Source: a virus. Taken from it: DNA of 64,000 nucleotides. The stretch's first letter is position 1. Each line of letters begins with the position of its first letter. The stretch is from IMG/VR virus record IMGVR_UViG_3300025138_000016; one strand, 5' to 3'. Positions 20,616 through 38,559 of this stretch are shown here, piece by piece. The position numbers were made by a program, and so were the translations under genes. The notes under the pieces were generated by a model. That model was given only the letters and a program-made list of their open reading frames with translations. It had not been told where the DNA came from and ran no database searches.

Positions 20616-21434
20616 TTAGTTGTCTTCTAATTCATCGATTAAGTCTTCCCATATGTCCTGATGGTTAACTATTGTTGATAATGTAAACCTATTTGTACGA
20701 GCATGCGCAGCATGCCAGGAAGAATCTTCTGGATTATCCGACCATTTTACTATCGGATTATCCATACCTATTTTCTCTCTATGTATTTTTTCTGGTGCTG
20801 TTGATATAAATTGTCCTGCTCTACAGCTCCAACCCTTTGCGTCAGGGTATTCTAAAATCTCACCATTATCATAAGTAAAGAAGTCCCCTTCACCTATTTT
20901 GTTATAATGTAATAATATGTTATAACCTGGTGCATTTCCGTTATGATGCCAAGGTATAAATGTGCCAGGTGTATAAAAAGCACAAAGCGCCATTGCTCCA
21001 CCACCTAGAAAGTCAGCTGATATATCATATACAGCTTGTTTAAGTTTTGTACCTAAGAAGAACTTAGGATTGTTATAGAATGTTTGTCCAGCTAAGAATG
21101 TTTCCGCATTAGGAAATCCGCTAGTAACATGTGAGCCATTTTCTTTGCGCATTAAATTCATCTGATACTGAAGGTATTCCATACCACATGGATCCATCTG
21201 TCCATCTTTAATATCATCTCTTGTATGACTTGGTAGTATATCAAAGTGAGGAGATACTTTATACGCTTCTTTACCTTCTTTCCTTCTCTGCTCAGGGTTA
21301 CGATGATCAAAAGACAACTTATGTTCTCTATCTAAAAACTCTTTATCATCGAATACTTGATCAACAAGTCCAGATATATTATCTAATAGTTTAAGAAATT
21401 CTGGATTCTTAATCTTTACGTCACGCATTTTCAT
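20616..21434 (-). CDS. Cupin / 2OG-Fe(II) oxygenase-like protein (272 aa)
   Basis: FYTPGTFIPWHHN..PGYNILL and distal WHAA..NRFTLS, i.e. a double-stranded beta-helix pattern with HxN...H...R. The second ligand is non-canonical (Asn instead of Asp/Glu). Confidence 0.55.
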   Translation of the reverse strand: MKMRDVKIKNPEFLKLLDNISGLVDQVFDDKEFLDREHKLSFDHRNPEQRRKEGKEAYKVSPHFDILPSHTRDDIKDGQMDPCGMEYLQYQMNLMRKENGSHVTSGFPNAETFLAGQTFYNNPKFFLGTKLKQAVYDISADFLGGGAMALCAFYTPGTFIPWHHNGNAPGYNILLHYNKIGEGDFFTYDNGEILEYPDAKGWSCRAGQFISTAPEKIHREKIGMDNPIVKWSDNPEDSSWHAAHARTNRFTLSTIVNHQDIWEDLIDELEDN

Positions 21435-21440
21435 TATAAA

Positions 21441-22301
21441 TTATCCTTGCTCATGAGGAGCTCGTGCTTGTTCCTTTTCTTCTTGGGTTAACGTCTCCCA
21501 TTCATCTTCAGCATCCTTATAATCTTCTGGTAAAGCTTTATGCATTAATTGACGATCTAATGGATGATGTTTTATTACTGGTGTACAGCCTGCCTCTTCT
21601 TCAGCATTTAGGTACATATTCCAATTCCATTTAGCCTGACCGAACTCAACAGCTGATACTTTTATACCTGGTGCGTCGAATTTCATTATATACCATAATG
21701 TAAATTGGTCCCAGCTTTTATTACCTATCCAATATTCAGGATGCTCGTCCCACCATTTTACTGAACAGTTTATTTCTTTATATCGAGGCCACCAATTGTT
21801 AATAACATTATTAGCTGCTTCAGTATCATTCCATAAAAAGAATCCACCATGCCATATAAAGTTTCTTTCAGGGTCATCATCTCGTATACCAGCATTACCG
21901 TCTTCGGCATATATGGCTGTTGATGCTCCAACTCTTGTTGTTATCTTACAGAAAGCCATATCATGCTCATCATCAAGTAGCTTCCATACATCCTGTATTT
22001 CAGGATCAACAATTTCCATATCAGCATCAAGATAGCATGTCTTTTTAAATGGTGAGAATGGTAGACCCCATAGCTTTGTTCTTGTACTATGTGGCATACC
22101 TTGATCTTCAGTAATAATATCTACTACTTGATCGTACTCTCTAAACTCATCTGCCCATGTATTATGTGTTACAATTAATACTTTACAGTCAGGATAGTAC
22201 TCATCTAATGAGTCTAATAGAATAAGTGCGTTATTTTTATACCAGGGATGTAGCGTCGCTACTATAACAAAACCTTTATCGTATGTCTTATTGACTGACA
22301 T
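21441..22301 (-). CDS. Glycosyltransferase, GT-A fold (GT8-like)
   Basis: K.WGLPFSPFKKTCYLDAD (DxD), HGGFFLW, WDQFTLW, WNW and VIKHH motifs; ATG start at 22301 (GTG at 22310 is an alternative). Confidence 0.75.
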   Translation of the reverse strand: MSVNKTYDKGFVIVATLHPWYKNNALILLDSLDEYYPDCKVLIVTHNTWADEFREYDQVVDIITEDQGMPHSTRTKLWGLPFSPFKKTCYLDADMEIVDPEIQDVWKLLDDEHDMAFCKITTRVGASTAIYAEDGNAGIRDDDPERNFIWHGGFFLWNDTEAANNVINNWWPRYKEINCSVKWWDEHPEYWIGNKSWDQFTLWYIMKFDAPGIKVSAVEFGQAKWNWNMYLNAEEEAGCTPVIKHHPLDRQLMHKALPEDYKDAEDEWETLTQEEKEQARAPHEQG

Positions 22302-22704
22302 CGTAATCACTCACAACTGCTGATGCATATACGTTTAATGCTTCAAACGTTTCTGCTTTACGAAGTCTTCGTTTTAGTTTTTTATTAGTAGAGGCTTTTA
22401 TTTCTGGAAGTTCGTAAAGAGTTAATTTTGCTTGGAACAGTTGTTCTGCAAAAGCTCTCTTTTCGTTTTCCTGTTGTTCTTGCTCTTGAGTGTCGCGTTG
22501 GGTTCTGTACTCATCTATATCAGCTTGAGTTCTTGCATCGATCTCATCTAGAGTAGTTTCGCGTAAAGCAGCATCCCAATTTTCGGTATCTGCTCTGTCG
22601 ATTATCATCTCACGACTTCCGGTGTCAGTTATTTCCCGACACCTTAGTCTTGTCTTTGTTTCTGGATCTTCCCACAAGATTTTTTTAAATCTTTTATCTG
22701 CCAT
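22288..22704 (-). CDS. Hypothetical helical protein (138 aa), possible fibre chaperone
   Basis: Charged helical ORF with GAAGG SD; first gene downstream of the repeat-protein pair. Confidence 0.6.
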   Translation of the reverse strand: MADKRFKKILWEDPETKTRLRCREITDTGSREMIIDRADTENWDAALRETTLDEIDARTQADIDEYRTQRDTQEQEQQENEKRAFAEQLFQAKLTLYELPEIKASTNKKLKRRLRKAETFEALNVYASAVVSDYDVSQ

Positions 22705-22761: not shown

Positions 22762-25700
22762 TTATGCAACTCTCAGCCATAGTTTAACTGTGCTTTCTAC
22801 ACTAGTACTAGCCATAATAGTATCACCTGAGAACTGTCCTGTAAACTGATTACTAAATGTACTTGTATACTGAGGACCTGGAGTCGATCTAGAATAGGTT
22901 CCATCTGAATAACTTGGTCCACCAGTAGCTCTAGCATAGCCTATTGCAAAGTTTGGTCCAACTACTAGTCTAGCATACTGACCATCTGTGTAACCTGGTC
23001 CAGGAGTAGTTCTAGCGTAGCCTACTGCATAGTTAGGTCCTGGTCTACTTCTAGTATATTGACCGTCTGAGTAGCTAGGTCCTGGTGTAGTTCTAGCATA
23101 GTTAGTTGTATACTGTGGTCCTGGTGTTACTCTAGTATAGTTACCATCTGAGTAGCTAGGTCCAGGAGTAGTTCTAGCAAAGTTAACTACGTAGTTAGGT
23201 CCTACAATTAATCTTGTATATTGACCATCTGAGTAGTTAGGTCCAGGTGTTGATCTAGCATAACCTACTGCATAGTTAGGACCTGGTCTGCTTCTTGTAT
23301 ACTGACCATCAGAGAATGTTACACCTGGTGTTGATCTTGTGTACTGTGCAGTAAATTGTCTTAAGAACGATCTACCATAACCAGCAGAGTAAACTCTTAC
23401 GAAGCCTCTAGCATATGCTCCTGTAAATTGTCTGTTGAATGCTCTTGAATAACCAGCTGAGAATTGTCTAGCAAATGCTCTTGAATACTGACCATAATAG
23501 GCTCTAGCAAACGCTCTACCATATCCTGCTGAATATACTCTAGTAAACTGTCTAGCATATTGACCAGCGTATTGCCTAGCAAATGCTCTTCCATATCCTG
23601 CTGAGTAGACTCTAGTAAATTGTCTAGCATATGCACCGTTATAAACTCTTCCGAATGATCTTCCATATCCTGCTGAGTAGACTCTAGTAAATTGTCTAGC
23701 ATATGCTGCTGAATATACTCTTCCGAACGATCTAGTATAACTAGCTGAATAAACTCTAGTAAATTGTCTAGCATATGCACCGTTATAAACTCTTCCGAAT
23801 GATCTATTATAATTAGCTGAGTAAACTCTACCAAACGATCTTCCATAAGCGCCAGCATATACTCTGCCATAGTTAACAGCATAAGCTGGCCCAGGCCTGC
23901 TTCTACCATAGTTTACAGCATAAGCTGGTCCAGGTCTTGATCTAGCATAGTTAACAGTATAGTTAGGTCCTGGTCTACTTCTTGCGTAGTTGCCGGTATA
24001 TACTCTACCATAGTTAACTGTATACTGTGCTGAATAAACTCTACCATAGTTTACTGTATAAGATCCGTAATAGATTCTTCCAAAGGATCTTCCATAAGAT
24101 ACACCATAATTTGGTCCAGGTCTTGATCTACCGTAGTTACCAGCATATAGTCTACCGTAGTTAACTGCATATGAACCTGAATAAGTTCTACCATAGTTAC
24201 CGTAATAAACTCTACCATAGTTAACAGCATAGTTTGGTCCATTATATTGAATGCCAGGTAAAGGTCCCCTAGCATATTGAGGTCCAAAGAAGTTAGAGCC
24301 ATCACCACCATTAATAGGTGAAGGTGATTGCCATGGATAGTTTCTTGAGAAAACTCCACCATAGTTAGTACTTGGAAAAGAGTTATTAAACTGTCTTGTA
24401 TAACTTACACCATAAGCTGGTCCAGGTCTTGCTCTGTTATAAGCCGGCCCGCCTCTTGATCTACCATATGATACGCCGTAGTTTGGTCCGCCTCTTGATC
24501 TAGCATAGCTACCGTAATAAACTCTACCGTAGTTAACAACATAGTTTGAAGTATAATTTGGTCCAGGTCTTGATCTACCGTATGCTACACCATAAGCTGG
24601 TCCAGGTCTTGACCTACCATAACTTACACCATAAGCTGGTCCTGGTCTACTTCTTCCGTAGTTACCTGCATATACTCTTCCGAAAGCTCTTCCGTATGCT
24701 GCTGAATATACTCTACCGTAGTTAGTTGCATATGCACCATAGTATACTCTACCATAGTTAACAGCATAAGCTGGCCCAGGTCTGCTTCTTGCGTAGTTAC
24801 CGTCTGAATAACCTGGTCCTGGTCTTGATCTAGCATAAGCTACATCATAGTTAGGACCTGGTCTACTTCTAGTATAGTTACCATCTGAGTAGTTAGGTCC
24901 AGGTGTTGATCTAGAATAGCCTACTGCATAGTTAGGTCCTGGTCTTGATCTGGCATAGTTACCATCACTATAGTTAGGTCCTGGTCTGCTTCTTGCGTAG
25001 TTAACAGTATAGCTTGGTCCTGGTCTACTTCTAGTATAGTTACCATCTGAGTAGTTAGGTCCAGGTGTTGATCTAGCATAGTTAACAGTATAGTTAGGTC
25101 CCGGTCTGCTTCTTGTATATTGGCCATCTGAGTAGTTAGGTCCAGGTGTTGATCTAGCATAGTTAACAGTATAACTTGGACCTGGTCTAGTTCTTGAATA
25201 CTGACCGTCTGAATAATTTGGTCCTGGTGTCGCTCTTGCATAACCTACTGTATAGTTAGGTCCTACAATTAGTCTAGAATAGTTACCATCTGAGTAATTA
25301 GGTCCAGGTGTTGATCTAGCGTAGTTAACAGTATAGTTAGGACCAGTAGTAGTTCTTGCATATTGACCATTAAATACTCTCTGGAATTGTCTTGCATATT
25401 GACCAGCATATTGTCTAGCAAACGCTCTAGTATATTGCGCTGAGAATACTCTAGTAAACTGTCTAGCATATTGACCGTTAAATTGTCTCTGGAATGATCT
25501 TCCGTATCCTGCTGAGAATGATCTAGCGAACTGTCTAGCATATTCACCAGAAAATGATCTAGCAAATGATCTTCCATACCCTGCTGTAAATGATCTAGCA
25601 AACTGCCTAGCATATTGACCAGCAAATTGTCTAGCAAATGCTCTTGAATAGTCTGCTGTAAATGATCTATTAAATGCTCTGGCGTATTGACCAGTAAACT

Positions 25701-26595
25701 GTCTAGTAAATGATCTTGTATAGTCAGCTGTAAATGCTCTAGCAAATTGTCTAGAATACTGTGCTGAATATACTCTGGTAAACTGTCTTGAGAAGTTACC
25801 AGTAAATTGTTGTGAGTACTGCTGAGATTGAACATCAGATAAACTATTTTCTATAGCATTTGATACCTGTAACCATGTTCCTGTTCCTGGGGCAGCAGTT
25901 TGTAGCTTATAAGTACCTACTCCAGTAGCTACTATTCTATTTCTTAATCTTTGTGTGAGAGTTTTAATCTCAGTATTATTCATCTCATTAACTGATGGTG
26001 TTGATGCATGTGCAGTTGCTTTCAAAGGTCTATATTCAGTTGGTGAAGTACCTGATGCAATCTTTCTCCATAGTTTATATGTAGTTGCTGCTGATTCACC
26101 AGTAGCTACTGTATCAGTAAAGGTGCCTTTATCCTGCCATGTACCACCAGATGGAGGAGATACTCCTAAAAAGTATTGCCCTGTTGCGTAACTAGATGTA
26201 TTTGCTATCTTTGCAATTAGGTGAGACATTACTGATGCATTTAAATCAGTGTCGTCTTGCTCTTCTATACCTTTGGATGCATCCCACTGAAGAGGTCTTA
26301 CAAGACCGCTCTCTGAATGTGAAGCAATATTTTGATAAAGTGTAGTAGTAACAGAGTTAGTAGCTCCAGTAGCTGGATGTGTTCCTACTGTTTCTGTTCT
26401 TCTCGTATCAACAAAAGTACCCACTGATGTACCTGTTGAAAAGCTTATATCACCTGTGCCTGTGCCTGTAGCGAAATCAGCCAGTATGATATCTGCCATG
26501 TAATCCATTTCGGCACTAGACATGCTCTGTAAGCCAGAGAAATTGGTTGTATTCGGTGTACCCGAACTAGTTTTAATTCTTAAAGGATTTGCCAA
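22762..26595 (-). CDS. Giant Tyr/Arg/Gly/Pro repeat protein with mirror-complementary repeat order (1277 aa); putative hairpin fibre
   Basis: TTG start with GGAG SD. A ~260-aa N-terminal base is followed by ~980 aa of A/B repeats centred on NGGDG, then C-terminal VKLWLRVA. Confidence 0.85.
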   Translation of the reverse strand: MANPLRIKTSSGTPNTTNFSGLQSMSSAEMDYMADIILADFATGTGTGDISFSTGTSVGTFVDTRRTETVGTHPATGATNSVTTTLYQNIASHSESGLVRPLQWDASKGIEEQDDTDLNASVMSHLIAKIANTSSYATGQYFLGVSPPSGGTWQDKGTFTDTVATGESAATTYKLWRKIASGTSPTEYRPLKATAHASTPSVNEMNNTEIKTLTQRLRNRIVATGVGTYKLQTAAPGTGTWLQVSNAIENSLSDVQSQQYSQQFTGNFSRQFTRVYSAQYSRQFARAFTADYTRSFTRQFTGQYARAFNRSFTADYSRAFARQFAGQYARQFARSFTAGYGRSFARSFSGEYARQFARSFSAGYGRSFQRQFNGQYARQFTRVFSAQYTRAFARQYAGQYARQFQRVFNGQYARTTTGPNYTVNYARSTPGPNYSDGNYSRLIVGPNYTVGYARATPGPNYSDGQYSRTRPGPSYTVNYARSTPGPNYSDGQYTRSRPGPNYTVNYARSTPGPNYSDGNYTRSRPGPSYTVNYARSRPGPNYSDGNYARSRPGPNYAVGYSRSTPGPNYSDGNYTRSRPGPNYDVAYARSRPGPGYSDGNYARSRPGPAYAVNYGRVYYGAYATNYGRVYSAAYGRAFGRVYAGNYGRSRPGPAYGVSYGRSRPGPAYGVAYGRSRPGPNYTSNYVVNYGRVYYGSYARSRGGPNYGVSYGRSRGGPAYNRARPGPAYGVSYTRQFNNSFPSTNYGGVFSRNYPWQSPSPINGGDGSNFFGPQYARGPLPGIQYNGPNYAVNYGRVYYGNYGRTYSGSYAVNYGRLYAGNYGRSRPGPNYGVSYGRSFGRIYYGSYTVNYGRVYSAQYTVNYGRVYTGNYARSRPGPNYTVNYARSRPGPAYAVNYGRSRPGPAYAVNYGRVYAGAYGRSFGRVYSANYNRSFGRVYNGAYARQFTRVYSASYTRSFGRVYSAAYARQFTRVYSAGYGRSFGRVYNGAYARQFTRVYSAGYGRAFARQYAGQYARQFTRVYSAGYGRAFARAYYGQYSRAFARQFSAGYSRAFNRQFTGAYARGFVRVYSAGYGRSFLRQFTAQYTRSTPGVTFSDGQYTRSRPGPNYAVGYARSTPGPNYSDGQYTRLIVGPNYVVNFARTTPGPSYSDGNYTRVTPGPQYTTNYARTTPGPSYSDGQYTRSRPGPNYAVGYARTTPGPGYTDGQYARLVVGPNFAIGYARATGGPSYSDGTYSRSTPGPQYTSTFSNQFTGQFSGDTIMASTSVESTVKLWLRVA
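22858..25794 (-). repeat. Coding tandem repeats: 36-nt A units (YxRxFxRxYxGx) and 39/42-nt B units (YxRSxPGPxYTVN / YxRSxPGPNYSDGN)
   Basis: Near-identical DNA units are visible, e.g. 72-nt periodicity around 23520-23820 and 81-nt periodicity around 24870-25330. Confidence 0.9.
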
Positions 26596-26655
26596 GGATC
26601 AATTCTCCCGAATGGACAGTATAACTGCAGTGTTATTGAAATTCTATGTGTTTAT

Positions 26656-29091
26656 TTATGCAATTCTTAACCACAAGGTCTTAGTATTTTCAGTATAATT
26701 TGAAGAAACTGTGAGGCCTGAATACTGTTTATTACGAGAACCAGCAAATTGATTGCTATAAGATGAAGCAAACTGTGAGCCAGGTGTTGATCTTGTATAT
26801 TGTCCAGTAAATTGTCCACGAATAAAGTTACCTGTATACTGAGGACCAGGTCTTGATCTAGCAAAGTTTACAGTATACTGTACTGACCTTGCATACGTAA
26901 CACTATAAGCACCAACAAATTGTCTAGCAAATTGACGCTGATAATCCCCTGAGAAAGATCTAGCATAATCAGCTGTATATACTCTTGTGTATTGAGTGAG
27001 GTATGTTGGTCCATTATAGTTAGGACCTACTGTGCTTCTAGTATATTGAGCTCTTGCATATAGACCAGCATACTGAGGTCCAGCAAATTGTCTACCATAA
27101 GCACCATAACTTCTAGAGCCTGCGAATGTTCTAGTATAAAATATTCGCGAATATGCCGGAGCATTTCTTGTTCTTGCATACTGTGCTGTATAGTTTCTTA
27201 AATAACTAACTGAATATGCAGGACCATCATATTGTGGACCAGCTACATCTCGAGTAAAGGTACTTATATACTGAGGTCCTGCTCTTGATCTTGCATATTG
27301 AGGACCATCATATTGTGGTCCTGGAGTTGATCTAGCATAAGCAGGACCATTAAAAGATAGAGAAGGCACAGATCTTGTATACTGTGGACCACCTGTAGCT
27401 CTAGAAAAGCTTCTAGAGAAGAATCTTGTATATTGTCCTCTTACAAAGTTTACTGGAATAGGCCCACGGTTATATGAGCCTCTAAAATATGCTCTTCCAT
27501 CACCACCATTTGCTTCGCTTTCTGGAACGTTATAATAGTAAACTGTTCTATAAAAGACTTGAGAAAAATCGAATCCTGGAGCTGTACCTGAATAAAGACC
27601 TGTGAACTGATTACCTGTTGAGTAATTTTGATCATATTGCCCTATGTAAGTTCTACCATACTGGCCAGCATAAAATCTTTGATAAGCCGCTCTTGTATAG
27701 TTTGCTGAGTATACTCTTGTATATTGTCTTTGATATTGCGCTGAATAATTTCTAGCATATTGAACTGAATAGTTATTAGTATATCGTCTAAGAAATGTCC
27801 TAGTATAATTAACAGTATAGTTTGGTCCGTCTGTTGATCTTGCATACTGACCGTAATAAACTAAAAGATATGCGACAGCATATGTAATGCCTCTTGAATA
27901 TGCGCCTGTGAAAGATACTGCATAGTTATCTCCCCTTGCATACTGTCTTTGAAATTGCGAGGAATATGTACGAGCATATTGACCTGCATATTGTCTAGTA
28001 AATGCTCTTTGAAATTGAGCACTAGCATATTGAGGTCCAGGAGTAGATCTTGCGTATGAGAGGCCTGCAACTACTCTTGTATATTGTGGACCATCATAGT
28101 TAGTACCAGCTACTCCTCTAGCAAAGTTAGATATATAACCTCTTGCAAAGCTACGTCCATAGCTACCAGCATATACTCTTTGGAATTGATCTGCATATTG
28201 TCTAGCAAATTGTCCTCTAGAATATTGATCACTAAATATTCTTTGGAATTGTCTAGCAAAGGTATTAGCATATTGTGCTGTATAGTTACCAGTATATTGA
28301 GTATTTTCAATATTAGGATTTCTGTCTGTAGCAGCTCCTCTTGCAACCCATGTACCTACACCAGGAATAGAAGTTTGAAATTTATATGTGCCGACGCCTG
28401 TTGCTACTATTCTATTTCTTAATCTAGCTACTAATGTCTGTATTTCTGTATCAGACATTTCTTGTAAGTTGGTAGTAGATTGTTTAAGTAGTTTAACTTG
28501 AGTAGGACTACTAGTATGAGATGTTTTTCTCCATAGCTTATAAGTAACTTTTTGATCTTCATCATTTGCGTTGTTAGTAACTTCATCAAAGAATTGATCT
28601 TGAGCTACCCAAGTACCACCAATGCTAGGTGCATTAACACTAACGTAATAAGATCCTGCAGCTGCATATGTTGAATTAGCTTTAGCTATATCATCTAAGC
28701 AAAGTTGCATTATAGTAGTGTTTAATTGAGTAGATGTTTGTTGTGCAACATGACCAGGATTAGATGTACCACCATGTGTAGCAGGTGTAATCATACTAGC
28801 TTCTGATAAAGAAGAAACGTTTTGTTTAAATATATAAGTAGTAGCACCAGCTGATCCTGAATAAGGATGCGATAAGAGTTCACCAGTTGCAAAATTATCT
28901 ACAAATGTACCAACACTAGTACCTGTTGAATTGATATTTAAATCTCCAACATGATCACCAGAGCCTGACTCTGTAGCGTACTTAGTGTTTATTAATTTAA
29001 CGGAATAGTCAAGCTCAGCATTTGTTGTGACTTGGACTCCATTATTATAAACCCCATTTGCATGTGTTCGCAACTTAAGGGGATTGCTCAT
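26656..29091 (-). CDS. Paralogous Tyr/Arg repeat hairpin protein (811 aa)
   Basis: Shares the NPL(K/R) N-terminus, GTSVGTFVD, YKLWRK, RLRNRIVATGVGTYK, the NGGDG turn and the LWLR(I/V)A C-terminus with 22762-26595. Confidence 0.85.
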   Translation of the reverse strand: MSNPLKLRTHANGVYNNGVQVTTNAELDYSVKLINTKYATESGSGDHVGDLNINSTGTSVGTFVDNFATGELLSHPYSGSAGATTYIFKQNVSSLSEASMITPATHGGTSNPGHVAQQTSTQLNTTIMQLCLDDIAKANSTYAAAGSYYVSVNAPSIGGTWVAQDQFFDEVTNNANDEDQKVTYKLWRKTSHTSSPTQVKLLKQSTTNLQEMSDTEIQTLVARLRNRIVATGVGTYKFQTSIPGVGTWVARGAATDRNPNIENTQYTGNYTAQYANTFARQFQRIFSDQYSRGQFARQYADQFQRVYAGSYGRSFARGYISNFARGVAGTNYDGPQYTRVVAGLSYARSTPGPQYASAQFQRAFTRQYAGQYARTYSSQFQRQYARGDNYAVSFTGAYSRGITYAVAYLLVYYGQYARSTDGPNYTVNYTRTFLRRYTNNYSVQYARNYSAQYQRQYTRVYSANYTRAAYQRFYAGQYGRTYIGQYDQNYSTGNQFTGLYSGTAPGFDFSQVFYRTVYYYNVPESEANGGDGRAYFRGSYNRGPIPVNFVRGQYTRFFSRSFSRATGGPQYTRSVPSLSFNGPAYARSTPGPQYDGPQYARSRAGPQYISTFTRDVAGPQYDGPAYSVSYLRNYTAQYARTRNAPAYSRIFYTRTFAGSRSYGAYGRQFAGPQYAGLYARAQYTRSTVGPNYNGPTYLTQYTRVYTADYARSFSGDYQRQFARQFVGAYSVTYARSVQYTVNFARSRPGPQYTGNFIRGQFTGQYTRSTPGSQFASSYSNQFAGSRNKQYSGLTVSSNYTENTKTLWLRIA

Positions 29092-32296: not shown

Positions 32297-34339
32297 TTAT
32301 GCGCTCAATGCAATAGCTCTTATATCAGCTATTTTTGGTACCTTATATTGTTTGTCTGATCTGAAGAGTACTTTAACTTGGAATAGTCCAAAGTTTTCAT
32401 ACTCTCTTCCAGTTGAATCAAAGTATCTTAACTTAAATGATCCGTCTGATTGTGGGTATAGGAAAGCAGCTTGCTTTTCGTCAGCGTTTACTTTATAATG
32501 TAATGTACTAGTAAATGCTTTATCTGCTGCAGATGTAAATACGACCGCAGTAGTATTAGATGATTCTACTCTTCCAAGTACATAGTTATCAGGTATACCA
32601 TCAGTAATGATCATTAGATCACCAGCTGCATAGTTAGTGTTATTAGCACCTGAGCCTGATATAGTAGTACTACCAACTGAGCATGTAGCAACACCAGATT
32701 GTCTATTTGTATTTTCAATAGTAGGTATTGCTGGTACAGTATATTTAAATTCTTTAAAGTCATTAGCTGCATCTGAAGCACTAAATAGTTCAGTCTGACC
32801 TTCAGCTAAGTTAAGTTTAGTCCACTGTCTATCAATCATCTTATCATCATCACCTGGTGATGTGAACATAGCATATACATCAAGACTAGTACCTGCTGGT
32901 CTATATCCTGTTACATATGTATTAAGATCTTCAGCTTCCATACCGGATGCTAATGTAACTGTTTTAGATACATACTTACTTGTTGTTAAACCTTGACCAT
33001 ATATTCTTTCGTTTGTATCTATGTTATTAATTGATGTAGCATACGCTTCAATCATTGACATACCTTCTTTGGTATCTAATGTTGGTGAAACGTTATCATT
33101 TGTTGTCTTTAATTTAGTAGTTACTACTAGAGACTTATTACCTGAATTATCTCTTACTTCATTTGATTTACTAAATACTGCTGAGTTAAATGAAGTGTTT
33201 CTATTAGTAACACCATATATTAATGGTCTAGTTTCATTAGTAGCAGGTGTAGTTGAATCAATTGTTTTTATTGTTGAAAATAAAGTAGTGCCTGTTGTTT
33301 CTGTTTTATATAAATGAGGCTGGTAATGATTAACAATTGAATTATCAATTGAAGCAATATCAAATGATGCTGCTGATTCAGTACATTTAATAGTATCACC
33401 GTTAGCAAATAAATTACTTCCTGATGCTGATGACTCTTTAATTGTGACTTTATTACCTACAACTGTATCATATTTACCAATAATACCAGTTGGAGTTTTA
33501 GCTGCGTTAGCTGATGCAATACCTATTCTTGCTCCACCGACTATTGTCATCGATGTATCTGATGCTATACTTTTAACAGTAACAACATCACTAATATCAT
33601 TATTAGAAGATGATCTAATTACAATACTATCTCCTGATGAGAATGATGAAGTAAACGTTGTAGATACTCCAGTCACTGAACTGCTACCTTTCGTACATGT
33701 AACAGTACCAGCTGCAAAAGCTGATGGCACTTTATATACTTCTTCTGCTAATTGAATAGTACCTGAAAGATTCTCAATAGTAAGGAATTCTAAGTCTTCA
33801 TTTACCTGAACGATTTCACCTTGCACTGTAGGTTTGAATGTTGCTTTATTTAATCTAAACTTAAGATCAGAATCAACTATAGGACTCCAAGCACTTGATG
33901 CTGATATAAACAATGTACCATCACCCCAGCTTGAGGATATAGGAGCTCCTGTGACGATGTCATCTTCTCCAGTTTTAAGATACCATAATTTAATATCTGG
34001 TGAACCACCATCTGGACTTACTGATAAAGCATACTGCTTACCTGACTTAAGAAAAGCAGGTATATCAAAGATACATCTTGTTGGTATAAGACCATTATTT
34101 GATATCTTAATATTCTTTGCTAGTAAGTGAGTAGTAGCTAAGACTGTTCTAGTTGGTGTACCGTTTAAACATTCTCTTATCTGTACTGTTATACCTGATG
34201 TTGTATCTTTAGCTTGAAAGAACAAATCACATGAGGTCAAATATAATCCATCTGCATCAGCACAATGCTCAGGCAATATCCTAAACGTCTGTGCGATCGG
34301 ATTATCGCTTAATCTACTTTCTTTATACCATTGACTCAT
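32297..34339 (-). CDS. Virion structural protein; C-terminal half of DUF4815/VrlC-like protein (680 aa)
   Basis: NPIAQTF..GLYLTSCDLFF..KD, DLKFRLNKATF, SKYVSKTVTL and P.IADIRAIAL motifs. Confidence 0.7.
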   Translation of the reverse strand: MSQWYKESRLSDNPIAQTFRILPEHCADADGLYLTSCDLFFQAKDTTSGITVQIRECLNGTPTRTVLATTHLLAKNIKISNNGLIPTRCIFDIPAFLKSGKQYALSVSPDGGSPDIKLWYLKTGEDDIVTGAPISSSWGDGTLFISASSAWSPIVDSDLKFRLNKATFKPTVQGEIVQVNEDLEFLTIENLSGTIQLAEEVYKVPSAFAAGTVTCTKGSSSVTGVSTTFTSSFSSGDSIVIRSSSNNDISDVVTVKSIASDTSMTIVGGARIGIASANAAKTPTGIIGKYDTVVGNKVTIKESSASGSNLFANGDTIKCTESAASFDIASIDNSIVNHYQPHLYKTETTGTTLFSTIKTIDSTTPATNETRPLIYGVTNRNTSFNSAVFSKSNEVRDNSGNKSLVVTTKLKTTNDNVSPTLDTKEGMSMIEAYATSINNIDTNERIYGQGLTTSKYVSKTVTLASGMEAEDLNTYVTGYRPAGTSLDVYAMFTSPGDDDKMIDRQWTKLNLAEGQTELFSASDAANDFKEFKYTVPAIPTIENTNRQSGVATCSVGSTTISGSGANNTNYAAGDLMIITDGIPDNYVLGRVESSNTTAVVFTSAADKAFTSTLHYKVNADEKQAAFLYPQSDGSFKLRYFDSTGREYENFGLFQVKVLFRSDKQYKVPKIADIRAIALSA

Positions 34340-34344
34340 ATTTG

Positions 34345-37300
34345 TTACCTTGTCTCATACATAGAGTATATTTCATCTATGTTTATTATTCCACCGCTTG
34401 AGCCTGTTATAGCTGTATTTGCTTTAGAACCTGTTCCTGTTGTAGAAGTTACATACGTATTATTAACGATTGTTACACCTGTATTAACTGAATATGGATT
34501 AAATTGTACGGTACTTGTATCTTGAGTATTACCAACTGTATCCATTGCAATGGAATTACCATAGTACTCATCATCCCACCACCAGTTCCAAGCATATGTA
34601 TTAGTTACTGTTACATCAGTATCAATATCAATAGTCTCTTCTGTATAGGTATTAGATCCAATAGTCTCAAACTCAAATGTAGGTTGTCTTGTTGTTAATG
34701 AGACGCCTTCTTTATTAACTGAATAGTTATAAGCACTATATGTTGCAGTAGCTGTTGAAGTAGCTGAATCCATTCCAGCAATTGTAGTTGCATCAGCTAA
34801 TACTAATTGTCTATCACCAACATTAAATATACCTGCTGTTAATCTAAACTGAGCACTTAATACACCATAACTATCTGATAATACTGGGTCACCATAGTCA
34901 CCAAGTTTATGTACATGCTTAGCACTATTTAATAATGTTGTTGAACCATCAGTTAATGTTGCTAATGTACCTGGACGGAAATTAGCTGCTTGAGATGTAT
35001 TATCAAAGAATAAATAATGTCTTGTATTAGGTCTTAACCCAGTAACAAGTATTTTAATTAACTTAGCTCTCATAAATGGTGAGAATGTTACATCAGTAAT
35101 AAAGTCACCAACTGCGGTTGTATTATCTTCATAACCCATAGCTAGTTGCTGAGTAGTTTTAAGATAAGTATCTGTTGTAGTAGTTGTAGTTGTTGTTACA
35201 GCTGTTTCAGTAGTATGCCCATAAGGCCAGCCCCAACCACCCCAGTAGTTATTATGACCGTAATGACCACCATAACCATAATAGCCTTCATGACCGACGT
35301 GATCGTATCCACCCCATCCATCCCATCCCCAGTAACCGTAGTTCTTAAAGTTGGTGTCAGTAGTTGTATTAACGTCTACTGTATTAGCTGATGAAGTACC
35401 AATATGATCAATACTAGTTTTAGTCATTGGTAAGATATCATTAATATTATCTAATAGATCTTTAACGCCTGTAGATGTATCAATAAAGATATCTTTAGTT
35501 GGTGTTGTTGTCTCGTCATACCCTGCATCATAATTAGGTGTTAATTTAACTTTACCAACATACTTGTAAAATACTGATGTGCATGGTCTAAAGTTAGAAC
35601 ATACATCTTGATTAATAAATGATGATTCAGTAGCATTTAATATCATTAAACCATCTAGGTCAGTCATATTAGTTGAGCTTTGTAACTTAAGATCAATCAT
35701 TTCTTTTTTAAACTTAGGATGATATTCAGTTGATGTCTCATCAATAGCGATATTAAATTCTCTATTTCTTGTATCAGCTGAATTGAAATCAGTAGCTGGA
35801 TCAACAAAGATACCATTCTTAAATCTATCATTACCATTCTCGTCTGTAATGGCCATGTTTTGTGTCTTTTGCTCTAATTGAGATAGTGTAGTATAATACT
35901 CAAGATTTTTTAATCTCTTATCCATCTTAGATATATCTTTCATTGTATATCGTTTAGTATTAGATGGCTGTATTACAACTGACTCATTAGTTCTCAATTT
36001 AGCTCTCGCTTCCTTAGAAGTAAGAGATGGGAATGGTGGAACAATTATTGTACCAAGTACTAATGCCCCTGGTGGGTCTTGAGGTGGTACAGGAGATGAA
36101 GCAGGTGCACCACGTTTAGTTACTATGTAACCTTTCTCTGTGATAGCAAGCTTATCTATTCTTCCCATGTAATATTGTATATCAGTTTCAAACTGTTTAT
36201 CAGGTGCAGCTAAGAAATGATCAATACTACCAAATGTTTCAGTAACACTTGGATTGACTGTCGCAGCTCCAATAGAGACTGCATATGCACCTGTATTAGC
36301 TACTTGTGGTCTTGAATCAAGTGTATCTCTTAAATCTGCTTTAAAGCCTGAGTCTGAAACATAAACTGGAATATCTTCTGGATCTAATAATGATACACCA
36401 TCACTCTTATAGTAACTTGATGCAGTATAGAATCCTGCTCCAGATGCTGGATCAGCAGCTTGGAACACCTTACATTTAACTAAGATTTTATTTGAACCAG
36501 TTAATGACTGAGATGACTTTTTAGTTAACTGAGATAAGCCGTAGAAGTTATCTCTACTATTTTTCTCTAATACAAATCCTATTTTAGATTCTGAATTAGA
36601 CTCTGAATATGTTGAACCAATAAAGATTCCTGTAATAGAATCAACATCAGGCATTCCTAATGACCAAGGCCCTGCTGTAGTTCCAGCGTTATTAGAACAA
36701 TCTATCTTAACATAGACTTCTTTTAATGTCTTCTTAAGAGGAGTAACATTAGTTTTCTTCTCATTAAATGTAACATTAAATGCTTTAGAAGTAGTAATAC
36801 CACTTGCTAATGCAGCTGTTAAGTCAACAGTAGCAGTTGTACCTGAAACAGTAATTGATGCTTTATCAGTATCAATAGCTACGTTATTAGCTATACCGCC
36901 TGCTGTTGTAGTAGGTCTAATAATAAATTCTTTCTTTTGTACATTTGTTAATGCACCTGAGTAAGGAAACACTCCTGATAGAGTAGTTATTGTAACTGTA
37001 TTACTTGATGTAGTTACTTGTCTCTCACTTCTGTATGTGTAGTCAGAACCTGATGTAGCTTTAATCGCTCTTGCAGGTAATGGCCATAAATTTGTATTGA
37101 TTTGCGGCTCGTGTAATATAGCTCTGCTATTAATTAATACAGCATCAGCTGTACCAGCAGCATTAATATGTAATGCTTTAATGTTTCTTATTGCTTTACC
37201 AGCATTCATTTTAACATCAAATACATATACTTTATATTGCGCTTTAGCAGTTCCTTGAACACCGCTATGATATGCAAATGCTTTTACTTTTGCTGTACCA

Positions 37301-38559
37301 ATCTCAGTACCAGGTGATACTGTTAAGTTATCATTATCAGTAACTGAAGTACCTACCGTATCTCTTAATGATACAGTTGAGACTGTATTAGAACTAAATC
37401 CACCAACTAGTTGATCAACAATAAAGTAACTACCCATGTTTTGAGTTACTACTTGATCTTCTGAGCTAGCAAATGCTACTGCTTTCTGAACTGGTAATCT
37501 TGTTGTATTAAATTGTTCTGATCTAAATCCATTTACATAATGTAGTCCGGGGCCAACCAACACATTAAAATGAGTAGTATTAGCTGAAATAGGCTCAGCT
37601 GACAAAGCATTTTTACGTATCGTGTAGTCGCCTGATTCATCTTTAGTCCTTAATGCCATCTCGTCTGAGATAGTATTGAATTGTGTTGATAGCTTCTTAG
37701 CAATAGGTAGACCTTGTTGGAAGTCCATAATAGCCATAAAGTTACTATTTGATCTACCATCTTGTGTAGGAATAGCAACTAAGAATGGATTTAACTTAAG
37801 TCTATCTGCTCCAGGAGCATTTTCATTATTATAACCTGAAGCATTATCTAGTAAAGACGTATCAGCATCTGAAGTAACAATTGTTTCTGCTACATCATAA
37901 CCTACGGAGACATTGTCGGGTAAGTCCGTATACTTTGATGCTATTACTAGTCCTTCACTGACACTAACAAAATGTCCTTTACTATAAATTATACCTTCTG
38001 AACAATGTACAGCATAACCTTGACCAACACAAGTAGCAGGTGTAGCAACCTGAGAACCAGCAACTGTTACAGTTGTTATTAATGTTGTTAATGCTGCATC
38101 AGAATATATCTCAATATTTTCTGTTGTTGTAAATGTTTTGGCGTCTGAAACACCAGTAGTTATATAGTCAATATATAACGTAGTTAAATTAGGATTCTGT
38201 GAAACAAGTCCGTCTGCATATTGTTGAATTATAGCAACAACGTTAGAAGTAGCACCTTTACCGTAATAGTTAAGGTAAGTAGATGGAGCTACAGGCTGAC
38301 CATCAGTTTGTAAATCAGCAATCTTTACGTAATCGTAATCAGCATCAAGCTTAATCTGACACCCTTCAATAATAGTACCTTCTTTATAGATATTATTACC
38401 AAAGCGTGATACTTGAGCTTGGAGAATTGTCTGTAATTGAGTTAATTCTCTTGCTTGAAGAGCAACAGCTGGTTTAAAAAGAACTCTATGGAACTTTTTA
38501 TCCGCGCTGTAGTCGTCGTAGTAAGGACTAACGTTAAAATCGGTGTTTAATGTACTCAT
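34345..38559 (-). CDS. DUF4815/VrlC-like large structural protein, N-terminal part (1404 aa)
   Basis: FNVSPYYDDY..FHRVLFKP..QARELTQLQTILQ, APGADRLK, RYTMKDI..RLKNLEYYT.LS.LE and RFKNGIFVD motifs. Confidence 0.8.
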   Translation of the reverse strand: MSTLNTDFNVSPYYDDYSADKKFHRVLFKPAVALQARELTQLQTILQAQVSRFGNNIYKEGTIIEGCQIKLDADYDYVKIADLQTDGQPVAPSTYLNYYGKGATSNVVAIIQQYADGLVSQNPNLTTLYIDYITTGVSDAKTFTTTENIEIYSDAALTTLITTVTVAGSQVATPATCVGQGYAVHCSEGIIYSKGHFVSVSEGLVIASKYTDLPDNVSVGYDVAETIVTSDADTSLLDNASGYNNENAPGADRLKLNPFLVAIPTQDGRSNSNFMAIMDFQQGLPIAKKLSTQFNTISDEMALRTKDESGDYTIRKNALSAEPISANTTHFNVLVGPGLHYVNGFRSEQFNTTRLPVQKAVAFASSEDQVVTQNMGSYFIVDQLVGGFSSNTVSTVSLRDTVGTSVTDNDNLTVSPGTEIGTAKVKAFAYHSGVQGTAKAQYKVYVFDVKMNAGKAIRNIKALHINAAGTADAVLINSRAILHEPQINTNLWPLPARAIKATSGSDYTYRSERQVTTSSNTVTITTLSGVFPYSGALTNVQKKEFIIRPTTTAGGIANNVAIDTDKASITVSGTTATVDLTAALASGITTSKAFNVTFNEKKTNVTPLKKTLKEVYVKIDCSNNAGTTAGPWSLGMPDVDSITGIFIGSTYSESNSESKIGFVLEKNSRDNFYGLSQLTKKSSQSLTGSNKILVKCKVFQAADPASGAGFYTASSYYKSDGVSLLDPEDIPVYVSDSGFKADLRDTLDSRPQVANTGAYAVSIGAATVNPSVTETFGSIDHFLAAPDKQFETDIQYYMGRIDKLAITEKGYIVTKRGAPASSPVPPQDPPGALVLGTIIVPPFPSLTSKEARAKLRTNESVVIQPSNTKRYTMKDISKMDKRLKNLEYYTTLSQLEQKTQNMAITDENGNDRFKNGIFVDPATDFNSADTRNREFNIAIDETSTEYHPKFKKEMIDLKLQSSTNMTDLDGLMILNATESSFINQDVCSNFRPCTSVFYKYVGKVKLTPNYDAGYDETTTPTKDIFIDTSTGVKDLLDNINDILPMTKTSIDHIGTSSANTVDVNTTTDTNFKNYGYWGWDGWGGYDHVGHEGYYGYGGHYGHNNYWGGWGWPYGHTTETAVTTTTTTTTDTYLKTTQQLAMGYEDNTTAVGDFITDVTFSPFMRAKLIKILVTGLRPNTRHYLFFDNTSQAANFRPGTLATLTDGSTTLLNSAKHVHKLGDYGDPVLSDSYGVLSAQFRLTAGIFNVGDRQLVLADATTIAGMDSATSTATATYSAYNYSVNKEGVSLTTRQPTFEFETIGSNTYTEETIDIDTDVTVTNTYAWNWWWDDEYYGNSIAMDTVGNTQDTSTVQFNPYSVNTGVTIVNNTYVTSTTGTGSKANTAITGSSGGIINIDEIYSMYETR

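What the first reader, a model, noticed from the sequence alone, without database searches (positions are those of the whole stretch)
26656..29091. Adjacent paralog follows the same pairing code with a different 'message' and half the length
Seen in sequence: the 811-aa paralog has a different and more degenerate unit order, yet still pairs A with B across its NGGDG turn. That turn is at residue ~528, the midpoint of repeats ~266-790. Example pairs are FQRIFSDQ/YTRSTPGSQ, FQRVYAGS/FARSRPGPQ, FARGVAGTN/FARQFVGA, YARSTPGPQ/YTRVYTAD, YARSTDGPN/YLRNYTAQ, YARNYSAQ/YARSRAGPQ and YTRVYSAN/YARSTPGPQ, and YQRQ faces YDGPQ twice. A few segments are too degenerate to pair confidently. Both tips keep NGGDG...YxRGPxP but differ around it. 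This is an independent internal replicate of the pairing rule. Inference: two fibres of different length (~260 vs ~490 residues per arm) with variable, possibly receptor-binding, tips.
Basis: partly seen in the sequence, partly recalled or inferred. Interest (0 to 1): 0.85.

Follow-up and report, generated by a model that had tools for sequence, protein, structure and literature searches.

The report
Self-pairing fold-back phage fibre paralog
An 811-residue tail-module protein of an uncultured marine T4-like phage has two 260-residue repeat arms that match rung for rung in reverse order under a strict rule, and relatives keep the rule through paired changes, so the chain almost certainly runs out, turns and zips back on itself into a long thin fibre of a design I found described nowhere.

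Summary
ORF 26656-29091 (-) encodes 811 aa in four parts: a globular base (1-265), an N-arm (266-512), a tip with NGGDG (528-532) and a C-arm (535-789). A last strand (790-811) returns to the base.

- An unbiased scan of all fold points puts the best A:B facing at residue 525.5.
- With each arm cut into 4-residue rungs and aligned without gaps from the base, 12 of 14 PGP-type 9-mers face an in-phase aromatic-x-Arg-x-aromatic-x-x-x 8-mer. Shifting by one rung gives 0. The shuffle mean is 4.3, p<1/400.
- 24 orthologs (698-959 aa) and five long paralogs (24/24 to 43/43) obey the same rule.
- The arm that carries the 9-mer flips between orthologs at the same rung, which is compensatory change.
- Family members run continuously from 273 to 1490 aa. 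The repeats are therefore an insertion in the last hairpin of a beta-prism-like base, which forces an out-and-back path.

The tip is the fastest-evolving part. The 3D fold of the shaft, the oligomer state and the receptor role are not shown. No Pfam, PHROG, PDB or literature match was found. This scan reached the same reading for relatives in at least eight other genomes and for the long paralog here.

The parts
26656..29091 (-). Whole ORF, 811 aa (P0001), the short fold-back paralog. GGGGA ribosome-binding site 6-7 nt before the ATG.
   Evidence: 98-100% identical proteins in marine metagenomes
28297..29091 (-). Base domain, residues 1-265. It has three internal strand-loop-strand repeats and a beta-prism-like fold.
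   Evidence: AF2 pLDDT 73-93. The top four VIA hits are the same beta-prism domains in two independent models, Z 5.3 and 7.0. Internal repeat alignment E 4e-4.
27556..28296 (-). N-arm, residues 266-512, about 57 rungs of period-4 aromatic quads with four 9-mer B units.
27490..27555 (-). Tip, residues 513-534, including NGGDG (residues 528-532, window 27496-27510). It is the fold point and the least conserved part.
26725..27489 (-). C-arm, residues 535-789, about 58 rungs with ten 9-mer B units. It pairs antiparallel with the N-arm.
26659..26724 (-). Closing segment, residues 790-811, ending in the family-wide L-W-L-R-I-A strand that completes the third repeat of the base.
   Evidence: AF2 pLDDT 81-95 and 88-96 in P0175. 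VIA alignments run through to the last residue. The motif is present in 70 of 145 family representatives.
22762..26595 (-). Adjacent long paralog, 1277 aa (P0002). Same base, same rule (37/37 in phase), same NGGDG tip type.
20616..22704 (-). Three downstream genes (138, 289, 272 aa) that travel with the fibre genes, including next to the fibre homolog of the distant phage C48C1. Function unknown.
   Evidence: synteny; E 1e-10, 2e-26, 2e-16 to the C48C1 neighbours; no family hit

Best explanation
P0001 is a structural, probably fibre-forming, protein of a marine T4-like myovirus. Its 525-residue repeat region is a giant extension of the third beta-hairpin of a beta-prism-like base domain.

Path of the chain: it leaves the base at about residue 266, runs out for about 57 four-residue rungs, turns at the NGGDG tip, and returns antiparallel and in register. 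Its last strand (804-811) re-enters the base.

Register is set by a rung grammar:
- Each 9-mer of type Y-x-R-S-x-P-G-P-x is two rungs plus a one-residue bulge.
- It docks on a flat 8-mer, aromatic-x-R-x-aromatic-x-x-x, in the other arm.
- The P-G-P half lies opposite the Arg quad, and the Y-x-R half lies opposite the Arg-free quad.
- Single G-P 5-mers also face Arg quads.
- Two flat Arg quads never face each other.

Shown: the mirror order, the phase-exact complementarity, its conservation through flips, and the insertion topology.

Inferred: that the arms are beta-strands of a two-stranded ribbon (about 75-80 nm here and about 160 nm for the long paralog at 3.3 A per residue); that the bulge is a Gly-Pro beta-bulge packing on Arg or the aromatic ring; and that the product is an external adhesion fibre with a fast-evolving tip and a strongly cationic, Tyr/Arg-rich surface.
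For: Fold point and complementarity
- The fold point found without priors lies 2-4 residues from NGGDG and 1.5 residues from the anchor midpoint.
- 12/14 B units are in phase at offset 0 and none at offsets -1 or +1, p<1/400.
- Pairing matrix, observed/expected: B2:R 3.4-3.7; B1:n 2.6-3.0; B1:R 0; B:B 0. Flat R:R is 1 observed against 14.9 expected in eight short-paralog proteins and 0 against 36.4 in the long paralogs. R:GP is 3.1-3.2 in the short-paralog sets and 2.6 in the long paralogs.

Conservation
- 24 orthologs of 698-959 aa all fit, 23 at offset 0 (P0033 at offset 2), each p<1/400. The five long paralogs score 100%. The arms therefore keep equal rung numbers despite large differences in length.

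Compensatory change
- Residues 337-359 (B B b) correspond to five plain quads in P0010 and P0013. The mirrored residues 697-716 (five quads) correspond to B b B in P0010 and B a B in P0013. The flanks are conserved.
- Many N/C polarity flips occur at fixed rung indices, with almost no double occupancy.

Topology
- The base family has 271 representatives, and the base is N-terminal in nearly all of the 150 listed.
- Members that carry the C-end motif run continuously from 273 to 1490 aa. In the shortest, only 20-45 residues separate the GTW strand from the last strand.
- AF2 places the C-terminal strand in the base with pLDDT 81-96 in two proteins. Its low-confidence strands in the arms are mirror ranges: 248-289/766-809, 317-341/713-735 and 365-380/674-688, each summing to about 1053.

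Context
- The gene lies in a T4-like tail module between the gp6/7/8-like and DUF4815 genes and the sheath gene.
- The order short paralog then long paralog is conserved in four other contigs.
Against: - AF2 gives pLDDT of about 25-35 for the arms in both models, so no trustworthy 3D model of the shaft exists.
- A free two-stranded ribbon 260 residues long has no solved precedent and may need oligomerisation, partners or modification.
- The repeat region carries net charge +44 with no acidic compensation. That is awkward for tight packing.
- Virion location is inferred from gene order only. No proteomic or imaging data exist, and the only cultured-phage homolog (C48C1) is annotated hypothetical.
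- One homolog (P0009, 669 aa) and the most distant ones (P0032, P0034-37) do not show the signal.
Confidence: 0.8

Rival explanations
1. Same fold-back chain, but the functional unit is a trimer (or other oligomer). The out-going and returning strands of three chains would form a six-stranded needle, as in the T4 gp37 tip. The A:B rule would then partly describe contacts between chains.
For: Phage fibres are typically trimeric, and the T4 gp37 needle is a six-stranded antiparallel assembly of three out-and-back chains (PMC9659904). One face of the putative strands is all aromatic/Arg and would need burying.
Against: The base resembles beta-prism domains that have three pseudo-repeats within a single chain. 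There are no His-x-His metal sites and no His at all in the repeats. A charge of +44 per chain would have to be packed three times.
Confidence: 0.3
2. There is no turn. Two chains lie antiparallel, head to tail, so that the N-arm of one pairs with the C-arm of the other and each C-terminal strand completes the partner's base (domain swap).
For: It predicts the same mirror complementarity and the same equal arm lengths. AF2 on a monomer cannot tell a swapped strand from the chain's own strand.
Against: - Minimal family members close the base after only 20-45 residues, which must happen within one chain.
- The repeat pattern always breaks exactly at the centre, into a Gly/Pro/Asp/Asn-rich segment of variable length, or into a tight YYGG-type turn in short members.
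- A rod with a base at both ends has no obvious place in a tail module.
Confidence: 0.07
3. The region is a disordered low-complexity Tyr/Arg/Gly segment (a sticker-type or spacer region), and the mirror order does not reflect physical pairing.
For: Very low AF2 confidence. The composition is 21% Tyr+Phe and 11% Arg, with no Cys, His or Met.
Against: Disorder does not predict phase-exact complementarity, equal rung counts over a twofold length range, or polarity flips at fixed rungs. No DNA-level process yields a protein-level mirror complement.
Confidence: 0.04

Closest known systems
Needle domain of the phage T4 long-tail-fibre tip, gp37 (Bartual et al. 2010, as summarised in PMC9659904 and PMC6957217)
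   Same: It is a T4-like phage fibre part in which each chain runs out to a tip and returns antiparallel. The receptor-contacting residues sit at or near the turn.
   Different: gp37's needle is a short segment within the last 215 residues of the protein (PMC9659904). It is an obligate trimer held by seven Fe ions on His-x-His motifs. Here each arm has 260-500 residues, there is no His, there is no sequence or family match, the period is 4 with a bulge/Arg grammar, and the C-terminus re-enters an N-terminal base domain.
Beta-prism domains: C-terminal domain of Plu-MACPF (2qp2), Mp2Ba1 (8b6v), MABP domain of MVB12B (3tow), perforin-2 P2 (6sb1)
   Same: These are the top four structural matches to the base domain in two independent models (Z 5.3/5.2/4.9/4.5 and 7.0/6.9/6.2/5.6, 109-121 residues aligned, rmsd 3.4-5.3). 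They stand clearly apart from the next rows for the second model (next Z 3.5) and less so for the first (next Z 3.4). The base also has three sequence-visible strand-loop-strand repeats.
   Different: Z is at most 7, identity is 6-12%, and Foldseek finds nothing. None of those domains carries a several-hundred-residue hairpin in one of its loops.
3347-aa hypothetical protein of phage C48C1 (OQ984149, Kyanoviridae), the only homolog in cultured-phage records
   Same: It has the same base domain, aromatic-x-R type repeats and a Y-T-L-Y-V-R-V-A C-end. The same three downstream genes follow it.
   Different: Identity is 26%. It has almost no PGP units (2) and several globular domains inserted in the arms. 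It is unannotated and unstudied; my literature search on the phage name returned only an unrelated paper.
Covariation in RNA stems (analogy only)
   Same: Complementary unit types sit at mirrored positions, and the complementarity is kept through double changes.
   Different: The units are 4-9-residue peptide modules. The rule is asymmetric (bulge against flat Arg quad), and A:A rungs are allowed.

Membership tests
T4 gp37-type fibre tip (needle) | Sequence or profile similarity to gp37/gp12 fibre families | tested here: not met
   No Pfam, PHROG or NCBIfam family for P0001. tblastn against 50,697 phage records finds only C48C1.
T4 gp37-type fibre tip (needle) | His-x-His motifs coordinating iron along the needle | tested here: not met
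   The repeat region 266-790 contains no His.
T4 gp37-type fibre tip (needle) | Out-and-back chain path with antiparallel strands | tested here: met
   Mirror complementarity, insertion topology and return of the C-terminal strand.
T4 gp37-type fibre tip (needle) | Homotrimer | not testable with these tools
   Needs SEC-MALS, EM or a confident multimer model.
Beta-prism (MABP / MACPF C-terminal type) base domain | Three-fold pseudo-symmetric prism of three sheets | tested here: inconclusive
   The same four beta-prism entries top both VIA searches (Z 5.3 and 7.0), but this is below the level where the fold is certain. Internal repeat E 4e-4.
Fold-back 'base plus hairpin' family defined here | N-terminal base with a GTW strand, and a C-terminal L-W-[LIV]-R-x-A strand | tested here: met
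   P0001 has both. 70 of 145 representatives carry the C-end motif; many of the rest are short or cut off.
Fold-back 'base plus hairpin' family defined here | Equal rung number in both arms, with each B unit opposite an in-phase Arg-bearing 8-mer | tested here: met
   12/14 at offset 0, p<1/400.
Known fibre shaft repeats (adenovirus triple beta-spiral, collagen-like Gly-X-Y, triple beta-helix) | 15-residue, 3-residue or 8-residue repeat signatures (periods from my own knowledge) | tested here: not met
   The period here is 4 (aromatic every fourth residue), with 12 and 13-14 residue super-units.

The most novel reading that the evidence does not exclude
The family embodies a peptide 'pairing grammar'. 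Flat Arg quads, Arg-free quads and Gly-Pro bulges specify the register of a single chain zipping on itself over 60-150 rungs. Hairpin length can therefore be changed freely by paired insertions, and the bulge-bearing arm can be swapped. If so, this is a new, evolvable and in principle designable way to build 20-200 nm protein rods from one chain. The two paralogs would present one tip type at two distances from the baseplate.
Probability: 0.5. Interest if true: 0.9.

Novelty: categorically new. Interest (0 to 1): 0.8.

Why it matters
Phage fibres are the main determinants of host range, yet the fibres of the abundant uncultured marine T4-like phages are largely unannotated. This family has 271 representative clusters at 50% identity. 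It has no Pfam, PHROG or PDB relative and only one homolog in cultured phages.

It appears to use a building principle not seen in solved fibres. One chain folds back over hundreds of residues, and a simple rung-level complementarity fixes the register. Evolution maintains that complementarity through compensatory changes.

- It gives a directly testable model: rod length, Cys-pair mapping and B:B clash mutants.
- It gives a way to read fibre length from sequence.
- It could serve as a scaffold for designed protein rods.
- The conserved short/long gene pair, the fast-evolving tips and the three co-travelling genes of unknown function are leads to how these phages find their hosts.

Tried and rejected
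- Complex prediction with three copies of residues 416-638 (alignment A2) returned 'no answer': score 0.00, and the partner's own fold was uncertain. It says nothing either way.
- AF2 on the full protein and on a short family member (P0175) modelled the base well but left the arms at pLDDT 25-40. No shaft geometry can be taken from these models.
- Foldseek against the PDB gave no match with either model.
- The ESM Atlas gave only unnamed viral clusters at scores of 0.88 or below.
- Megablast of 20 kb around the gene against the phage records gave no match.
- No whole genome is held for this window, so host markers could not be sought.
- DNA-level palindrome as the source of the mirror order: rejected, with only two 15-nt chance inverted pairs.
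- Direct-shift (parallel) pairing of A with B: its best score covers a lower fraction of positions (140/390 against 114/260) and follows from the block layout.
- The idea that the three downstream genes are a glycosyltransferase and a cupin/2OG oxygenase: no Pfam, NCBIfam or PDB sequence support. Only their conservation next to the fibre genes is shown.
- Sharing of the tip between the two paralogs of one genome holds in this window, L006 and L002, but not in L004 or L005. It is not a general rule.
- Literature searches found no description of such a protein.
Full report
WHAT IS THERE. ORF 26656-29091 on the minus strand encodes 811 aa (P0001). A GGGGA ribosome-binding site lies just before the ATG. 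The next gene downstream is a 1277-aa paralog (P0002, 22762-26595). Both start with a 265-residue non-repeat domain that is 42% identical between them. Both end in a conserved strand, T-L-W-L-R-I-A or K-L-W-L-R-V-A. Everything in between is built from an aromatic residue every fourth position. Three unit types matter:
- Plain quads with Arg at position 3 (R) or without it (n).
- 5- and 6-mers, which are quads with a one- or two-residue bulge, often Gly-Pro.
- 9-mers of type Y-x-R-S-x-P-G-P-x (B). Each is two quads plus one extra residue.
The repeat region of P0001 is 21% Tyr+Phe and 11% Arg. It has no His, Cys or Met and a net charge of +44. P0002's repeat region is +107.

CHECK OF THE OBSERVATION.
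- I scanned every possible fold point and counted residues of a B unit facing residues of plain quads. The maximum lies at 525.5 in P0001 (NGGDG is 528-532) and at 756.5 in P0002 (NGGDG is 762-766). B:B contacts are 0 against 12.5 expected and 9 against 55 expected.
- Unit shuffles never reached these scores in 500 trials.
- I then fixed the fold from two anchors that do not depend on the repeats: the GTW strand of the base and the C-terminal LWLR. Shuffling only the C-arm units gives AB 114 against 78 (p<0.001) and BB 0 against 10 (p=0.04) for P0001.
- The sharpest test works on rungs. I cut both arms at the aromatics, counted 4-6-mers as one column and 9-mers as two, and laid the N-arm against the reversed C-arm from the base without any gap. 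At offset 0, 12 of 14 B units face exactly an aromatic-x-R-x quad followed by an Arg-free quad, in phase. At offsets -1 and +1 the count is 0. Shuffles give a mean of 4.3 and a maximum of 8.
- The long paralog scores 37/37.
- The gene has no inverted repeat at DNA level, so the mirror order is a property of the protein.

A PAIRING MATRIX. I counted rung types in eight diverse short-paralog proteins and five long paralogs.
- The P-G-P half of B faces an R quad 3.7 times more often than expected and almost never faces an n quad.
- The Y-x-R half of B faces an n quad 2.6-3.0 times more often than expected and never faces an R quad.
- G-P 5-mers face R quads: 3.2 times expected in the short set, 2.6 in the long paralogs, and 5 scored G-P:R rungs in P0001 alone against 1.6 expected.
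- B never faces B.
- Two flat R quads almost never face each other (1 against 14.9 expected; 0 against 36.4). An R quad may face an R unit that carries a bulge.
So 'A pairs with B' is a special case of a more general rule: a flat Arg quad wants a bulged partner or an Arg-free partner. In P0001 A:A rungs are common, because it has only 14 B units in about 58 rungs.

RELATIVES.
- A word-indexed search found 73 relatives, all from marine metagenomes, none named and none with a Pfam domain.
- Twenty-four full-length orthologs of 698-959 aa each pass the rung test at p<1/400, 23 of them at offset 0 and P0033 at offset 2. The two arms therefore keep equal rung numbers although total length varies by 260 residues.
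- The arm that carries the B unit differs between orthologs at the same rung. P0001 residues 337-359 read B-B-b, where P0010 and P0013 have five plain quads. The mirrored residues 697-716 are five plain quads, where P0010 has B-b-B and P0013 B-a-B. The flanks are conserved on both sides.
- A rung-by-rung map of 25 proteins shows many such N/C flips and almost no double occupancy. These are compensatory double changes at sites about 360 residues apart in sequence.
- P0008 has the whole distal cassette with reversed polarity.
- P0009 and the most distant homologs (P0032, P0034-37) do not show the signal.

TOPOLOGY FROM THE FAMILY.
- An exhaustive phmmer search with the base alone found 271 representative clusters (172 at E<1e-10). 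The base is N-terminal in nearly all of the 150 listed.
- Members that end in the L-W-[LIV]-R-x-A motif form a continuous length series from 273 to 1490 aa. In the shortest, only 20-45 residues separate the GTW strand from the closing strand.
- The base has three sequence-visible strand-loop-strand repeats: residues 57-91, 158-190, and 245-265 plus 804-811. One repeat aligns to another at E 4e-4.
- The repeat region is therefore a hugely expanded loop of the third hairpin of the base. Its two ends are neighbouring strands, which forces an out-and-back path.
- AF2 agrees for two different proteins. The C-terminal strand sits in the base with pLDDT 81-96. The strands it draws in the arms, at low confidence, are mirror ranges about residue 526-527.
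- The base models match beta-prism domains best: Plu-MACPF C-terminal domain, Mp2Ba1, MABP and perforin-2 P2. The same four entries lead both lists. They stand clearly apart from the next rows in the second search only (7.0-5.6 against 3.5); in the first the drop is smaller (4.5 to 3.4). That is suggestive, not proof.
- Many short members have a tight Y-Y-G-G-type turn at the centre.

CONTEXT.
- The window is the tail module of a T4-like myovirus. It holds gp48-like, gp5-like, gp6-, gp7- and gp8-like baseplate genes, a DUF4815 protein, several fibre-like genes and the sheath gene.
- The sheath is closest to those of Stenotrophomonas phage DLP6 (56%), Caulobacter Cr30 and the Pelagibacter and Methylophilales myophages (47-49%). 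The host is unknown and need not be a cyanobacterium.
- Four other metagenome contigs keep the order gp8, DUF4815, about 680 aa, about 83 aa, about 950 aa, short paralog, long paralog (952-1499 aa), then about 140, 280, 275, 111 and 72 aa genes. L004 carries one extra 130-aa Cupin_2 gene in the downstream block, and L005 one extra 73-aa gene.
- All ten fibre proteins fold at their anchor midpoint, within 7 residues.
- The three genes after the long paralog also follow the 3347-aa homolog in phage C48C1 (E 1e-10, 2e-26, 2e-16). No family or PDB sequence match names them.

THE TIP.
- In all nine ortholog comparisons the tip (501-548) is the least conserved block. In the 98% identical P0004 it is 85% identical, against 97-100% elsewhere. 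More distant orthologs have unrelated tips of different length.
- The two paralogs of one genome share a tip type in this window and in L006 (NGGDG then Y-x-R-G-P-x-P). Independently, the L002 pair shares a different type (local score 176, against 45 or less for L002's tips against any other genome's). The L004 and L005 pairs do not share a tip type.
- This fits a tip under diversifying or host-linked selection. It does not prove receptor binding. The cationic Tyr/Arg shaft could equally act as a lateral adhesin for anionic glycans; that is my inference.

HOW IT MOST LIKELY WORKS.
- Shown: an in-register antiparallel association of the two arms, encoded by rung complementarity and anchored in one base domain.
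- Inferred: the arms are beta-strands of a two-stranded ribbon. Positions 1 and 3 of each quad (aromatic, and Arg or a small residue) would then lie on one face. The Gly-Pro insertions would be beta-bulges that make room for, or pack against, the Arg and aromatic of the partner. This would explain why a bulge needs a flat Arg quad and why two flat Arg quads clash.
- At 3.3 A per residue the rods would be about 75-80 nm (P0001) and about 160 nm (P0002).
- It remains open whether one hairpin stands alone or three pack into a gp37-like needle. The one multimer job gave no answer.

COMPARISON AND NOVELTY.
- The nearest known design is the T4 gp37 needle, described as a six-stranded antiparallel needle formed by three chains (PMC9659904, PMC6957217). 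P0001 shares only the out-and-back path. It fails the sequence and His-metal criteria.
- No paper in the library describes such a protein.
- Earlier agents of this scan reached the same fold-back reading for the long paralog in this window and for relatives in at least eight other genomes.

Noticed in passing
window 20616-22704 (-); L001 22121-24001: Three genes (138, 289 and 272 aa) directly downstream of the fibre pair are also found directly downstream of the distant 3347-aa homolog in phage C48C1 (E 1e-10, 2e-26, 2e-16), and in all four metagenome contigs. The 289-aa protein has a D-A-D-M-E motif. The 272-aa protein has an invariant W-H-x-N-G-N-A-P-G segment. No family or PDB sequence match was found. 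They are candidate assembly or modification factors for the fibres.
   Followed up: partly
window 26653-26660 (-): CATAAATA, close to the T4 late-promoter consensus TATAAATA (consensus from my own knowledge), overlaps the stop codon of P0001, 58 nt upstream of the TTG start of the long paralog. A GGGAGAA ribosome-binding site precedes that start.
   Followed up: no
L001 11983-22026 (phage C48C1, OQ984149): A 3347-aa family member whose arms carry several non-repeat globular inserts and almost no PGP units. It is the only homolog in 50,697 cultured-phage records and is annotated hypothetical.
   Followed up: partly
P0001 residues 266-790; P0002 residues 260-1254: The repeat regions have net charge +44 and +107. 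They contain no His, Cys or Met and almost no Glu or Lys. This is an extreme cationic, aromatic surface.
   Followed up: partly
L002 10001-16913; window 22762-29091; L006 9001-14813: The two paralogs of one genome share a tip type that differs between genomes: NGGDG type in this window and L006, and a P-P-Y-F-G-P-P-T type in L002. This suggests tip exchange between paralogs or a common target. It is not seen in L004 or L005.
   Followed up: yes
P0009 (669 aa, 152-kb ENA contig): A 61% identical homolog that breaks the rule (30 B:B residue contacts against about 20 expected) and is shorter. It may be a recombinant, a misassembly or a decayed copy.
   Followed up: no
family representatives P0115-P0235: Short family members (300-450 aa) use Arg-poor Y-T-G-x quads and have a conserved Y-Y-G-G-(R)-x-x-G turn at the centre. 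The same V-Y-Y-G motif recurs inside the arms of P0001 (residues 411-414) and P0002.
   Followed up: no
window 34345-38559 (-) and 32297-34339 (-): The 1404-aa DUF4815 protein and the following 680-aa protein together cover PHROG 358 (a 2056-position profile) as if they were a split of one longer protein.
   Followed up: no
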